Assembly: GCA_001244265.2 (NCBI GenBank)
Contig: CDLV01000008.1
Location: forward strand, 682,001-746,000
Direction: 5' to 3'
DNA from: Microbotryum violaceum
Lineage: Eukaryota
Length of the DNA stretch: 64,000 nucleotides
The notes beneath the pieces were generated by a model. That model was not told where the DNA came from and made no database searches. It saw nothing but the letters and a program-made list of their open reading frames with translations. Positions 16,500 through 21,787 of the stretch are shown here, piece after piece. The position numbers were made by a program, and so were the translations under genes. Each line of letters opens with the position of its first letter. Position 1 is the first letter of the stretch.

Positions 16500-17927
16500 T
16501 CGTGCCCAGTAGAGCTGATGTCCGGGTTTTCTAGGCTATACACCACTTCGGCGAGTCGGCTCAATTCTGCAGCCGGTTCGGCCATGATATGTTCGCACAA
16601 GCTGTCGGGACACTTCGATTCATTTCGCATCGATTCAGTCGGCTGAAAACGATGCTCATCGATTTATCAAGCAGATCTCTCCGCTTCCCATTCCGTCCGT
16701 TCGAATGACCCATCGGCCTCGGCGTGTTCAAGCGAAGTCCGAACAAAGAAAGTTCTCCTCTCCCATATTAGAAGTATAGAGGAATGGATCCCGACTCAAG
16801 GGGACGGCAGGAGAGGAACTTGGTAGAAAGCATCCGCAAAGTCGAAACCAAAACATTGCATTGACGGCGGTAAAGCACGAAACTGCCGGACAAGCTGGGC
16901 AAGCGTTGTCCATCTACACGGGAAAACGTTTGCAGTCAGCAAGTCGTTGCAGCTTTCGATCTCAGTGAGCTCATCGCACGCCCGCGGATACGACATATTC
17001 TCGATCACGCGGTGTTTCGGGGGTTGACCCGGTTCGCGTCGTTTTTCGATCACCGACAGCGGATTAGAGCGGAAAGAGCCGACTTGAAGGCGGAGCCAGT
17101 CGTAGTCAAAGGGCCCCGCGATGCGACCGTCGCATAAGAGACGGAGAAGTTCCTAGGCCGGTGCCTCACGAGATGCGTCATCATCGTTCGAAATGTGGCT
17201 GATCCGAGTAAACAGCTCCCTCGGAAGGTGACGGAGGCCAAAGTCGAAACCCTCGCGGATTTGGGTCGGGGTCGAATCGACTTGCTCAAAGGGAGTGTTG
17301 CCGCGGTGTTTTTGAAGATGTCAGCCATGAGGGCGGCGTACAGGAATGAAGCCGGCTGCCACTCGTCGAAGGTGAGCAAGTGATCGAGCTGGTGACCTAT
17401 GGTGACCTAGTTGGAGAGTCGCCGAGCGGTCCTTGGTCATGGCGAGAGAGATAGTCTGACCCAGCTTCACCTTGATGCTGGCTCCAGGCGTGAACAGACT
17501 CATCGGGATCGCTTCTGGTCTGGTCGCGTTGAACGTGATGTCAAACAACTCCGACGAGACGGCGGTTGGCGAGTCCGTGTAGGCCGAAACCAAACTGGCA
17601 CGAGAGTGGGACGTAGTGACATTGTAGGAACTGAAAGACCTCTTGTGGGAGTCCGAAGCGCCCGCCTGGAGACTCCTGTAGAGTTCGCGACCGAATGAGG
17701 CTACTAAGTCCTGCGGGGCCGCCCCACCACCAAGCGCGTTCGCACCCGCATCAGCGGCACCAAGACCGCTGTAACCAGCACCAGGACCGCCAGTGCCAGT
17801 AGCAACTGGACCGCCAGCACCCACCGCTCCGCAAGCACCACCAATCACCAACACCACCAGCACCACCAACACCTCCAGCACCACCAACACCTCCAGCACC
17901 ACCAGCACCACCGGGGGGTGCCGACAT
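16500..17927 (-). mobile_element. Degenerate, internally deleted tyrosine-recombinase (DIRS/Ngaro-type) retrotransposon: gag-like ORF plus RT fragment; boundaries approximate
   Basis: RT frame about 17290-16735 reads QIREGFDFGL...*ELLRLLCDGRIAGPFDYDWLRLQVGSFRSNPLSVIEKRREPGQPPKHRVIENMSYP...SCNDLLTANVFPCRWTTL...GFDFADAFYQVP. This fits the fungal DIRS/Ngaro RT N-terminal pattern (GFxxG; GRxxGPF; SPLxxVPK; KxRxIxxxSxP; DxxxAY). The upstream Gly-rich ORF carries LTFDEWQxA. There are in-frame stops and frameshifts, and no YxDD was found. Confidence 0.75.
17848..17912. repeat. 9/18-bp tandem repeat (ACCAGCACC / ACCAACACC / TCCAGCACC) encoding GGA/GGV at the start of the gag-like ORF
   Basis: Directly visible; on the minus strand from ATG 17927 it reads MSAPPGGAGGAGGVGGAGGVGGAGGVG. 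Confidence 0.85.
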
Positions 17928-18239
17928 CGTCGATCGTTGATCAGCGGTCGGTGGGCTCCAATCGCGATTTAAACATAGTGGTTTGATAAGAAAAGATTCG
18001 GCTGCTTGCCTCGACTACTCGCCTTCTTCTTGGGAATGGCATAAGCACTTCACCACTCGAAGCTCACATGTATCCGCCCCTCTCCATGCTCCACTGCACG
18101 CTCTCTCGGCCCGCACGAGTCTCGACTTTTCAGCTCAACCGACCGGTCAAAATCGAAGTCATCTTTGTTCAACTTTCGGCATTGCGATTCCATCACAGAT
18201 TTGCCGGCTGAATGAACAAGCTTCAAAACAGGTGTAGAT

Positions 18240-19256
18240 TCAAGCGGACTCGGAGTGCATTTGCAGAGCGGCCTATCCGGTATGGAAAGGAAGGGGCGTC
18301 CAAGAGGTCAGCAACTGAAATTGATGGGCGAAACAACGACTTCTGGGATTGGTACCTACGAAAAGCTTGTCCTTGGCCGCACCGACGACCGTGCCCTTCT
18401 TCTCGCCTTTCTGGAAGAACATGAACGTCGGCATCGCCTTAATCGCGCACTCGTGCGTAATTTCCTAAATGTCGATCAGAGCAGCAAAGTCAGTTCCGCT
18501 AATTTAGATCGATCATGCGTCAGTTAGCCCATCCAAATCACGCACCTCTTGGGCCTCTACATCGACCTTGTAGAACTCGAGGTTGGTGTGCTCCTCTTCG
18601 AGTTGCTCAAAGACGGGCGAGATGACCTTGCTGTTGGCACGCGAACGGGAAAGCAATGTGCGTCCGTTCAGGATCGCGAGATCAAGTGGACCTTCTCACT
18701 TCCCGATACTTACCAAGGTCTATAGTGTGAGATTGACGGGAGAGTTCAAAAGTAGAACCACGTTAGTAAAAGCGGACAATGCCAAAGTAAACCCACCCGT
18801 GCCCTGCTGGCATCTCGACACTCACCCGCACCCTGTGGGCGATGCACAAAGCAAGGGGTATGAAGTCAGCTACGACCCTATCGACGACGACATAATCACT
18901 CTTCGTGTGAAAACATACACGTGGCCCAAAAGTCGATGACGACGATCTTGTCCGTGTTGATAATCTTCTTGAATTCGGCGAGCGATTCGATTGCCTTGAC
19001 CACTGCGTTTGTGGTGGTCAGTGATCGGATGAGATATGCGCGTTTTTATCAGACTGAACAGTCATCGGACATCGTCTCCTCCTCCGTTCGAAACAGCTGA
19101 GATAAGCCTTCGTCTCGTGCATGGTGGCGCGGGTCGGAGCGCGTGGAAATCTGATCCGACCCGACGTGTATCGTCGCAGGCCCGGGCCACCTCGACGATT
19201 ACACCAGGATCATGCCACATCCACTGAGCTCCGAAGCACGGAAGGTAAGACTCACT
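18240..19256 (-). CDS. TRX: Thioredoxin (106 aa, WCGPC), 7 coding exons including two micro-exons
   Basis: Exons 19256 | 19002-18919 | 18832-18826 | 18719-18714 | 18630-18546 | 18464-18360 | 18272-18240 total 321 nt and translate to MVKAIESLAEFKKIINTDKIVVIDFWATWCGPCKVISPVFEQLEEEHTNLEFYKVDVEAQEEITHECAIKAMPTFMFFQKGEKKGTVVGAAKDKLFAALQMHSESA*. All introns are GT-AG. Confidence 0.93.
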
Positions 19257-19694
19257 GTTGATTATATTTACGAAGTAAAGAAGTGGGAGATGGAGATTGG
19301 AGAGATGTGATCAAAGCTCGGCAAAGATTGGAGGAGCAGTCGGCCCTCTGACGTCGAGTCGATTTTACCGGCAGCTGCAGACGAGCGAACACGCAATCGG
19401 GCGGCGTTTGCTGACAAATCCAGGTGAAGGGCCGGGGTCCGGATGACAAATCCGTAATTGGGTCCAACAAGATGCATCGGGAGGACGAGGTCGTTCTGGT
19501 ATCTTCCGTACTGAACGACCAATCCTTTCCAAAAGGACCACATCGATTAAAATCACATTTCATGACTTTGTGATACACGCTGCCCTGAAGACCCGCCTGC
19601 CTGCCCGCCTGCCTCGGCTTCAACCACTTCAATTTCTACCTGAGCAAGATATTGCAATCCCACCCCTTTTGAAACACATTCGTCCCGCCTTTCT

Positions 19695-21787
<2,093 letters not shown>

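What the first reader, a model, noticed from the sequence alone, without database searches (positions are those of the whole stretch)
18714..18832. Thioredoxin WCGPC active site is assembled from two consecutive micro-exons (7 nt and 6 nt)
The gene is absent from the ORF track. On the minus strand the sequence reads ...TGG GCC ACG T|gtatgt...cag|GG TGC GG|gtgagt...tag|A CCT TG|gtaagt...cag|C AAG. Three introns cut the five-residue redox motif, splitting the Trp, Gly and second Cys codons. Skipping the 6-nt exon alone keeps the frame and gives WCGKV, with no resolving Cys (a possible monothiol or substrate-trapping isoform). Skipping the 7-nt exon frameshifts. The architecture could allow splicing control of catalysis (inference), and gene predictors would probably mis-annotate it.
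Basis: partly seen in the sequence, partly recalled or inferred. Interest (0 to 1): 0.8.

Follow-up and report, generated by a model that had tools for sequence, protein, structure and literature searches.

The report
Thioredoxin active site from two micro-exons
An anther-smut fungus (Microbotryum) thioredoxin gene really does build its catalytic WCGPC motif from two tiny exons of 7 and 6 bases, which is a neat and annotation-breaking but otherwise ordinary case of fungal micro-exons, with no sign so far that it regulates the enzyme.

Summary
On the minus strand, 19256-18240 holds a seven-exon gene for a 106-residue classical thioredoxin. Exons 3 (18832-18826, 7 nt) and 4 (18719-18714, 6 nt) supply 13 nt of the WCGPC codons. 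Spliced contigs in two public runs of one study join 18919 to 18630 through exactly those 13 letters. The 7+6 split is the only GT-AG solution, and 0 of 2000 shuffles give one.

The locus is Microbotryum. The public M. lychnidis-dioicae protein MVLG_02370 already contains WCGPC, so the exons are annotated but not discussed in print.

The predicted mis-annotation is real. 2 of 4 Microbotryum orthologue records and one Rhodotorula record lack the motif.

New here:
- The start codon is split A|TG by a 253-nt intron. All 4 Microbotryum records have wrong N-termini.
- A Sporobolomyces contig encodes the motif on one 12-nt micro-exon.

Splicing control of catalysis could not be tested and is unlikely. 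Micro-exons are common in basidiomycetes (PMC12230235). Interest is low to moderate.

The parts
19256..19291 (-). Exon 1: 5' UTR (at least 36 nt seen) ending in the A of the start codon at 19256
   Evidence: The X4 contig covers 19291-19256 and joins 19256 to 19002. Donor A|gtgagt.
19003..19255 (-). Intron 1 (253 nt, GT..AG) that splits the start codon A|TG
   Evidence: Joint 19002->19256, skipping 253 with ends CT..AC on the + strand, in X4.
18919..19002 (-). Exon 2 (84 nt): TG of the ATG, then residues 2-28 and the first base of Trp29
   Evidence: It is identical to P0001 residues 19 onward.
18833..18918 (-). Intron 2 (86 nt, gtatgt..cacag), phase 1 inside the Trp codon
18826..18832 (-). Micro-exon 3 (7 nt, GGTGCGG): last two bases of Trp, the first Cys, and the first two bases of Gly
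   Evidence: letters between the joint; unique GT-AG placement.
18720..18825 (-). Intron 3 (106 nt, gtgagt..tatag, with a TACTAAC box), phase 2 inside the Gly codon. It is absent from the Sporobolomyces locus L012.
18714..18719 (-). Micro-exon 4 (6 nt, ACCTTG): third base of Gly, Pro, and the first two bases of the second Cys
18631..18713 (-). Intron 4 (83 nt, gtaagt..aacag), phase 2 inside the second Cys codon (TG|C). L012 has an intron at the same position.
18546..18630 (-). Exon 5 (85 nt)
   Evidence: Pfam PF00085 partial match.
18465..18545 (-). Intron 5 (81 nt, phase 0, between AQE and EIT). This position aligns with the DCQ|DVA intron of animal Trx-1 genes.
   Evidence: Joint in X2 and X4. 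Alignment to the mammalian-type chain 4puf_C. Table 1 of PMC4452251.
18360..18464 (-). Exon 6 (105 nt), holding the AMPTF cis-proline region
   Evidence: PF00085 24.4 bits on this exon alone.
18273..18359 (-). Intron 6 (87 nt, gtaggt..gatag, phase 0)
   Evidence: Joint in X2 and X4.
18143..18272 (-). Exon 7: last 10 codons plus the TGA stop (18272-18240), and a 3' UTR reaching at least 18143
   Evidence: The X2 contig reaches 18143.

Best explanation
This is the constitutively spliced housekeeping cytosolic thioredoxin gene (Trx1 type) of a Microbotryum anther-smut fungus. It has an unusually high intron density: six introns in a 321-nt coding sequence. Three of the introns fall within 13 nt of the WCGPC codons, leaving two internal micro-exons of 7 and 6 nt. 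A fourth splits the start codon A|TG.

Shown here:
- the exon-intron structure;
- the presence of both micro-exons and of the split ATG in spliced contigs;
- the thioredoxin identity of the product.

Inferred:
- The short introns (81-253 nt) are recognised one by one across the intron (intron definition), so exon length does not limit recognition.
- A 6-7-nt exon cannot hold an acceptor complex and a donor complex at once. The flanking introns must therefore come out one after another, each removal fusing a micro-exon to a normal-sized neighbour.
- The arrangement is a neutral product of intron gain or shift in an intron-rich lineage, not a regulatory device. A Sporobolomyces relative has one 12-nt micro-exon, sharing the TG|C intron position.

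Its practical effect is that gene predictors break the gene.
For: Gene model: seven exons, all introns GT..AG, 106 residues.

Transcripts:
- 2 of 2 transcript-like runs laid (X2 and X4, one study) carry contigs with joints at introns 5 and 6.
- The same contigs jump from 18631 to 18918 with 11 intervening letters, which equal the two micro-exons.
- X4 also shows the 19002->19256 joint.
- The DNA run X6 is unspliced.
- The 7+6 split is the unique GT-AG placement, and 0 of 2000 shuffles give any.

Family:
- The public protein P0001 contains model residues 2-106 exactly.
- P0001 scores 98.9 bits on PF00085 against a cutoff of 23.5.
- It matches solved thioredoxins at 2.6e-33 (2j23_A) and 4.3e-29 (5jy5_A).

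Start codon:
- 14 of 14 non-Microbotryum relatives in alignment A1 start within 1-3 residues of the model's M.
- Chain 5jy5_A starts MVKAIES at its residue 1.
- There is no ATG in the 36 nt of 5' UTR seen.

Relatives:
- L012 (96% identical to the Sporobolomyces roseus protein P0031) has ..TG|gtaagc..acag|12 nt|gtacgc..cacag|C...
- The in-frame loss of WCGP in P0087 is what skipping such a 12-nt exon would give.

Against a regulatory role:
- Only the included form is seen.
- P0001's cluster has one member, although that annotation incorporated alternatively spliced transcripts (PMC4469406 methods passage).

Context: about 9% of Coprinopsis cinerea gene models have an internal exon of 15 nt or less (PMC12230235).
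Against: - The transcript evidence is assembled contigs from one study. The RNA nature of those runs is the tool's guess. I infer it from the absence of all introns and from a total contig length of only 1-2 million letters.
- Contigs drop rare variants, so a minor or condition-specific skip isoform cannot be excluded.
- No raw reads were available, so inclusion levels, strand and order of intron removal are unknown.
- Sequential splicing and intron definition are inferred from general knowledge (recalled), not tested.
- The donor of intron 2 has a 1-nt placement ambiguity (T|GT..AG|GG or TG|TA..GG|G). I resolved it by the GT-AG rule only.
- 'Neutral origin' rests on one outgroup locus (L012) and one mis-annotated protein (P0087).
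Confidence: 0.8

Rival explanations
1. Regulated skipping. Under some condition, such as oxidative stress or growth in planta, the 6-nt exon is skipped. This gives an in-frame WCGKV thioredoxin without the resolving cysteine, which would act as a monothiol or substrate-trapping form.
For: - Skipping the 6-nt exon alone preserves the frame.
- Loss of the resolving Cys is known to trap mixed disulfides (mechanism described in the introduction of bioRxiv 10.1101/2025.04.24.650474, passage read).
- A regulated micro-exon switch exists in a filamentous fungus (Trichoderma Xlr2, PMC11121469; abstract start seen in the listing).
Against: - No skipped form appears in 2 of 2 contigs, though this is weak because contigs hide minor forms.
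- No second isoform sits in P0001's 90% cluster.
- Intron 3 has a consensus donor and a TACTAAC box, and micro-exon 4 has a GTAAGT donor.
- The deletion removes Pro and Cys at the start of the active-site helix, which is likely to destabilise the fold (inference).
- In Sporobolomyces the motif sits on one 12-nt exon, so no equivalent WCGK option exists there.
Confidence: 0.05
2. Expression control by unproductive splicing. The dense introns, including the one in the start codon, set thioredoxin output through intron retention or nonsense-mediated decay, or through intron-mediated enhancement, rather than by changing the protein.
For: - Retention of intron 2 runs into a stop after 7 codons (ORF ending ...WATCMFSHEE).
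- Skipping the 7-nt exon or both micro-exons shifts the frame.
- Intron density is about 6 per 0.32 kb, against a genome mean of 5.6 exons per 1,614-nt coding sequence (PMC4469406).
Against: There are no data on retained-intron transcripts; contigs only were available. The Sporobolomyces orthologue manages with two coding-region introns.
Confidence: 0.1
3. Chance or artefact. The WCGPC reading is a coincidental string of GT/AG-flanked oligomers in a decayed or wrongly modelled gene.
For: None beyond the small size of the pieces.
Against: - Spliced contigs carry exactly the 13 nt.
- The placement is unique, and 0 of 2000 shuffles give one.
- The product is a full-length thioredoxin that scores far above the Pfam cutoff.
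- Read-through in the mis-annotated M. saponariae and M. silenes-dioicae proteins shows that the same 7-nt exon plus GTGAGT donor is conserved.
Confidence: 0.01

Closest known systems
MVLG_02370, hypothetical protein / thioredoxin of Microbotryum lychnidis-dioicae p1A1 Lamole (P0001)
   Same: It contains residues 2-106 of the model letter for letter, including WCGPC. Both micro-exons are therefore already in a public annotation. The genome paper says that genes with internal exons of 6 nt or less were flagged and manually reviewed (PMC4469406, methods passage).
   Different: It starts 17 residues earlier, at an ATG inside intron 1, and uses a weak gtccga donor. The X4 contig and 14 of 14 outgroup orthologues support the split A|TG start instead. 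That paper does not mention thioredoxin (0 occurrences).
Sporobolomyces-type thioredoxin gene (metagenome contig locus L012; protein 96% identical to the S. roseus protein P0031)
   Same: It is an orthologous Trx1-type gene with the active site on a micro-exon. Its intron sits at the identical TG|C position in the second Cys codon.
   Different: - It has one 12-nt micro-exon instead of 7+6 nt.
- The Trp codon is split TG|G, one base off the window's T|GG.
- It has no intron in the Gly codon, an unsplit ATG, and no further coding-region introns (2 against 6).
Micro-exons inside conserved motifs of fungal genes (P450 I-helix and PKG motifs; Coprinopsis cinerea census)
   Same: These are very short internal exons embedded in catalytic or structural motifs. 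They are required for the frame and are routinely missed by predictors (PMC12940212, passages; PMC12230235, passages: 1,165 gene models, about 9%, with an internal exon of 15 nt or less).
   Different: The protein family is different. Here two micro-exons are consecutive, and together with a third intron they dissect a five-residue redox motif.
Regulated micro-exon switch of Trichoderma virens Xlr2
   Same: It is a fungal micro-exon whose inclusion changes the protein (PMC11121469; only the abstract start in the listing was seen).
   Different: No alternative inclusion has been shown here. Only the included form is seen.
Solved cytosolic thioredoxins 2j23_A and 5jy5_A
   Same: These are the best sequence matches among solved structures, at E 2.6e-33 and 4.3e-29. 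They share WCGPC, AMPTF and the overall length. 5jy5_A begins MVKAIES, like the model.
   Different: They are proteins only and say nothing about gene structure. From recall, not from a call, 2j23 is from Malassezia and 5jy5 from Cryptococcus.

Membership tests
Thioredoxin (Pfam PF00085, classical Trx1 type) | Profile match above the curated cutoff | tested here: met
   P0001, which holds model residues 2-106 exactly, scores 98.9 bits against a cutoff of 23.5, E 1.9e-28. Exon 6 alone scores 24.4 bits.
Thioredoxin (Pfam PF00085, classical Trx1 type) | WCGPC dithiol active site | tested here: met
   It is present in the spliced model and its 13 nt are present in the spliced contigs. 117 of the 120 best homologues have it.
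Thioredoxin (Pfam PF00085, classical Trx1 type) | Conserved cis-proline loop (xMPTF) and single-domain length of about 105 residues | tested here: met
   AMPTF is invariant in alignments A1 and A2. The model is 106 residues. The structural role of the proline is recalled.
Thioredoxin (Pfam PF00085, classical Trx1 type) | NADPH/thioredoxin-reductase-dependent disulfide reductase activity | not testable with these tools
   This needs an insulin or DTNB reduction assay with recombinant protein.
Constitutive internal micro-exon (15 nt or less, as counted in PMC12230235) | Internal exon of 15 nt or less with canonical AG/GT borders | tested here: met
   The exons are 7 nt and 6 nt, with borders cacag|..|gtgagt and tatag|..|gtaagt.
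Constitutive internal micro-exon (15 nt or less, as counted in PMC12230235) | Its letters are present in mature transcripts at the junction | tested here: met
   The X2 and X4 contigs carry the 11 letters between 18631 and 18918, plus one absorbed base on each side. The placement is unique.
Regulated (alternative) micro-exon switch | Both included and skipped isoforms exist | tested here: inconclusive
   Only the included form is found in 2 of 2 contigs, and contigs cannot show minor forms. No second isoform is in P0001's cluster.
Regulated (alternative) micro-exon switch | Skipping preserves the reading frame | tested here: inconclusive
   This holds for the 6-nt exon (giving WCGKV). It does not hold for the 7-nt exon or for both together, which shift the frame into an early stop.
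Regulated (alternative) micro-exon switch | Inclusion changes with condition or cell type | not testable with these tools
   No raw reads were available. The single look-up of sequencing runs and read-laying runs were used.

The most novel reading that the evidence does not exclude
The 6-nt exon is skipped under particular conditions, such as oxidative stress or growth in the host anther. This would yield an in-frame WCGKV monothiol thioredoxin that traps or glutathionylates its targets, so splicing would tune catalysis. A weaker alternative is that the forced one-after-another removal of introns 2-4 acts as a kinetic gate on thioredoxin output. Separately, the T|GG versus TG|G difference from Sporobolomyces could be a genuine one-base intron slide, which is a rarely documented event.
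Probability: 0.05. Interest if true: 0.65.

Novelty: new member of a known kind. Interest (0 to 1): 0.3.

Why it matters
Annotation. A housekeeping redox enzyme loses its catalytic motif in 2 of 4 public Microbotryum annotations and in one Rhodotorula annotation. It has a wrong N-terminus in 4 of 4 Microbotryum annotations. The cause is two micro-exons and a start codon split by an intron. Surveys that score the presence or loss of redox motifs from predicted proteomes would wrongly call these fungi thioredoxin-defective.

Evolution. The locus gives a compact series: a 12-nt micro-exon in Sporobolomyces against 7+6 nt in Microbotryum. Within 13 nt there is one shared intron position, one shifted by a single base and one extra. 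An apparently ancient phase-0 intron is shared with animal Trx-1 genes. The series could be used to study intron gain and sliding.

Mechanism. Two adjacent exons too short to hold two splice complexes at once make a natural substrate for studying the order of intron removal.

None of this changes what is known about thioredoxin function unless regulated skipping is found.

Tried and rejected
- No whole genome is held for this window, so paralogues and genome-wide micro-exon counts could not be examined.
- The look-up of sequencing runs: no RNA holder listed. X2-X5 are only guessed to be RNA.
- Parts of the stretch without cover in X2 and X4 are not used as evidence. These are the intron bins and 19022-19225, where the MVLG_02370-type first coding exon would lie.
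- The search for homologous proteins:
  - A 63-residue stop-free window reference (exon 6 plus intron read-through) found nothing among near-length proteins.
  - The same reference found 3 Microbotryum proteins among longer ones.
- A pattern for 'Trp-codon intron plus 7-nt exon' hit the window once, with 0 expected. It found 0 stretches in metagenome contigs and 0 in prokaryote genome contigs. The exact Microbotryum architecture was therefore not found elsewhere in these collections, which hold few fungal genomes.
- The search for related loci with alignment A2 returned 80 loci. From the table, only L012 has a match span well beyond three times the residues matched (451 nt for 105 residues). 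I took the other 79, at 29-46% identity, to be intronless and mostly bacterial, and did not open them.
- The six introns were compared with the whole window by blastn-short. Only self-hits and chance 11-15-nt matches appeared, so there is no sign of a repeated introner-like element.
- Pfam found nothing for the + strand ORF 18574-18939 or for the low-complexity ORF 17321-17968.
- Literature:
  - 'thioredoxin'+'microexon': 23 papers, 15 listed.
  - 'thioredoxin'+'micro-exon': 17 papers, 12 listed.
  - 'Microbotryum'+'microexon': 1 unrelated paper.
  - 'WCGPC'+intron+exon+fungus: 5 papers.
  - 'thioredoxin'+'intron position'+'active site': 23 papers, 15 listed.
  - By title and abstract start, none of the listed papers describes micro-exons in a thioredoxin gene.
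  - 'start codon'+'split by an intron'+'fungi': 2 unrelated papers.
  - Sahrawy et al. 1996 on thioredoxin intron positions is cited in PMC4452251. It is not in the library and I did not read it.
Those of PMC12230235 and PMC4469406 might list this gene class or isoforms.
- No structure prediction or complex prediction was run. They would not bear on the question, and spliced sequences cannot be handed to those tools.

Full report
**1. The observation**

An exon ends ...TGG GCC ACG T. It is followed by gtatgt...cacag, the seven bases GGTGCGG (18832-18826), gtgagt...tatag, the six bases ACCTTG (18719-18714), gtaagt...aacag, and then CAAGGTC.

I extended the model in both directions and joined the pieces by coordinate. 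This gives seven exons, six GT..AG introns (253, 86, 106, 83, 81 and 87 nt), a 321-nt open frame and a 106-residue protein with WCGPC. Three codons of the motif are split: Trp as T|GG, Gly as GG|A and the second Cys as TG|C. No ORF listing shows the gene. The stop-to-stop pieces on this strand are 49, 60 and 63 residues.

**2. Transcript evidence**

One search for sequencing runs listed 11 holders, none on record as RNA. I laid four of them.

- X6 carries the whole stretch unspliced and identical. It may be the source DNA.
- X1 carries unspliced fragments with a few differences.
- X2 and X4 (one study, another organism code) each carry one contig of 417 or 429 nt with no mismatch in the aligned exons and without the introns.

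Those two contigs show joints that fit 18272/18360 and 18464/18546. They also jump from 18631 to 18918 with the 11 letters AAGGTCCGCAC in between (+ strand). The aligner absorbed one matching base on each side. With those two bases, this is the reverse complement of the 13 nt formed by the two micro-exons. X4 also shows a 19002/19256 joint.

These runs total only 1-2 million contig letters and lack every intron, so I take them to be transcript assemblies. The tool itself calls that a guess.

I then enumerated every way to place the 13-mer in the 288-nt interval as one to three ordered pieces with AG before and GT after. There is a single solution, the 7+6 split, and 0 of 2000 shuffles give any. 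Without the splice-site rule a 6+7 split also fits, but its borders are non-canonical.

**3. What the gene is**

No single exon is long enough for the protein search. A stop-free window frame running from exon 6 into the intron retrieved three Microbotryum proteins.

P0001 is MVLG_02370 of M. lychnidis-dioicae p1A1 Lamole. It contains residues 2-106 of the model exactly. It scores 98.9 bits on Pfam Thioredoxin against a cutoff of 23.5. Its best matches among solved structures are thioredoxins 2j23_A (2.6e-33) and 5jy5_A (4.3e-29).

The window therefore comes from M. lychnidis-dioicae or a very near relative. The M. silenes-dioicae protein P0002 is equally identical in its exon-derived parts. 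The product is an ordinary Trx1-type dithiol thioredoxin. Its reaction mechanism, with a nucleophilic first Cys and a resolving second Cys, is as summarised in the introduction of bioRxiv 10.1101/2025.04.24.650474 (passage read).

**4. Public annotations**

Because P0001 has WCGPC, both micro-exons are already in a public gene model. The genome paper states that genes with internal exons of 6 nt or less were flagged and manually reviewed. It never mentions thioredoxin (PMC4469406, methods passage and term count).

- P0002 (M. silenes-dioicae) and P0003 (M. saponariae) read ...WATCMFSHEEVRVSVEMPAGHGPCK... and ...WATCMVRVSVEMPAGNGPCK....
- Those strings are translated intron sequence that passes through the 7-nt exon and its GTGAGT donor in another frame. 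This also shows that the exon and its donor are conserved in those species.
- P0087 (Rhodotorula toruloides) reads DFWATCKVIS, an in-frame loss of four residues.

Of the 120 best homologues listed, 117 have WCGPC. The three without it are all among the 18 that I recognise, by recall of taxonomy, as Microbotryomycetes.

**5. A split start codon**

Exon 2 begins TG GTC AAG directly after an acceptor cag. The X4 contig joins it to an upstream exon ending ...ATCAACA. The start codon is therefore A|TG, interrupted by a 253-nt intron, in a good initiation context. No ATG lies in the 36 nt of leader seen.

All four Microbotryum records have different and longer N-termini, built from ATGs or read-through inside intron 1. 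All 14 non-Microbotryum relatives in alignment A1 begin within one to three residues of the model's Met. The solved chain 5jy5_A begins MVKAIES at residue 1.

The read-through in P0003 (...NAVVKAIES) and P0004 (...ESVVKAIES) implies that cag|TG GTC, without a contiguous ATG, is conserved across the genus. This is inferred.

**6. Relatives and evolution**

A pattern for the exact Microbotryum architecture found nothing in metagenome or prokaryote genome contigs. A profile-guided scan returned 80 loci. From the table, only L012 has introns.

L012 encodes a protein 96% identical to the Sporobolomyces roseus protein P0031. Its gene reads ...ACT TG|gtaagc..acag|GTGCGGTCCCTG|gtacgc..cacag|C AAA GTC. 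Compared with the window:

- it has one 12-nt micro-exon instead of two;
- its intron in the second Cys codon is at the same TG|C position;
- its Trp codon is split one base later (TG|G);
- it has no intron in the Gly codon, an unsplit ATG, and no further coding-region introns.

Skipping such a 12-nt exon gives exactly the P0087 reading. This suggests that Rhodotorula shares the Sporobolomyces form (inference).

The Microbotryum 7+6 state is thus most simply a 12/13-nt micro-exon cut by one more intron. With a single outgroup locus, I cannot polarise this, and I cannot tell whether the one-base difference is a slide or an independent gain.

Separately, intron 5 (phase 0, between AQE and EIT) aligns with DCQ|DVA of a mammalian-type thioredoxin chain. 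That is the position given for mouse intron III and cestode intron II in Table 1 of PMC4452251 (its text says the human gene shares it), so it is probably an old intron.

**7. How it most likely works**

The structure and the mature message are shown. The rest is inferred.

- All six introns are short, with GTRNGT-like donors. Intron 3 has a TACTAAC box, and introns 1, 2, 5 and 6 have CTGAC.
- In fungi with short introns, splice sites are paired across the intron (recalled general knowledge). Exon length therefore does not limit recognition.
- Six or seven bases cannot hold an acceptor-side and a donor-side complex at the same time. Introns 2-4 must leave one after another, and each step fuses a micro-exon to a neighbour of normal size.
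- The gene has about six introns per 0.32 kb, against a genome mean of 5.6 exons per 1,614-nt coding sequence (PMC4469406).

**8. The regulatory idea**

Dropping the 6-nt exon keeps the frame and gives WCGKV. Dropping the 7-nt exon or both gives a frameshift and an early stop. Nothing observed speaks for such isoforms.

- Both contigs include both exons.
- P0001's 90% cluster has a single member, although that annotation incorporated alternative transcripts.
- The splice signals around the 6-nt exon are strong.

Contigs hide minor forms, and I had no raw reads. The idea is therefore untested rather than refuted, and I put it at about 5%.

**9. Novelty**

Micro-exons are common in basidiomycetes. 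1,165 Coprinopsis gene models (about 9%) have an internal exon of 15 nt or less, and 835 would gain a premature stop without one (PMC12230235, passages). Micro-exons inside conserved motifs are described for fungal P450 genes, down to 1 nt (PMC12940212, passages).

My searches found no paper describing micro-exons in a thioredoxin gene or in Microbotryum (listings only). Sahrawy et al. 1996 on thioredoxin intron positions could not be read.

This is a new, tidy member of a known kind. It is already implicit in one public annotation, and three things are added here: the split start codon, the tally of mis-annotations, and the comparison with Sporobolomyces.

**10. Limits**

- The transcript evidence comes from one study and from contigs only.
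- There is one outgroup locus.
- No genome is held for the window.

Noticed in passing
window 19256 / 19002-19001 (minus strand), intron 19003-19255: The start codon is split A|TG by a 253-nt intron, as the X4 contig joint shows. All 4 public Microbotryum orthologue records (P0001-P0004) have different, longer N-termini invented from intron 1. 14 of 14 outgroup orthologues start where the split ATG puts the Met.
   Followed up: yes
window 18465-18545 (intron 5, minus strand): This phase-0 intron lies between AQE and EIT. That position aligns with DCQ|DVA of mammalian-type thioredoxin, where PMC4452251 Table 1 places mouse intron III and cestode intron II (its text says the human gene shares the position). 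It looks like an ancient shared intron position.
   Followed up: partly
L012 1584-1731 compared with window 18631-18918: The Trp-codon intron is at TG|G in the Sporobolomyces contig and at T|GG in the window. This is a one-base difference in position and phase. It could be a one-base intron slide or two independent gains.
   Followed up: partly
window 19073-19125 (minus strand, inside intron 1): The ATG used by MVLG_02370 opens a 17-residue arginine-rich extension (ending in five Arg). It is joined to exon 2 through a weak gtccga donor. It is either a misprediction or a minor alternative 5' exon. Whether it could be a targeting peptide is unknown.
   Followed up: no
window 19695-20259 (minus strand): The upstream neighbour on the same strand is a WD40-repeat gene (PF00400, 61.8 bits on 19695-20108). 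From recall, it looks like a histone-binding RbAp48/Msi1-type protein.
   Followed up: partly
window 17321-17968 (minus strand): This long stop-free frame is rich in Gly, Ala, Val and Leu repeats (runs such as VLVVLEVLVV). The opposite strand reads a Pro/Thr/His-rich frame. There is no Pfam match. It is a low-complexity region downstream of the thioredoxin 3' end.
   Followed up: no
protein P0089 (Rhodosporidiobolus nylandii), alignment A1 columns about 175-185: This record lacks the conserved VGADPNKLK stretch. It is probably another exon missed by a predictor in a Microbotryomycetes thioredoxin gene.
   Followed up: no
window 18361 (+ strand A>T in run X1): A low-depth DNA contig under another organism code differs at the second base of the last codon of exon 6 (Phe to Tyr on the minus strand). 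The depth is 2.9 in one contig, so it may be an error or a strain difference.
   Followed up: no
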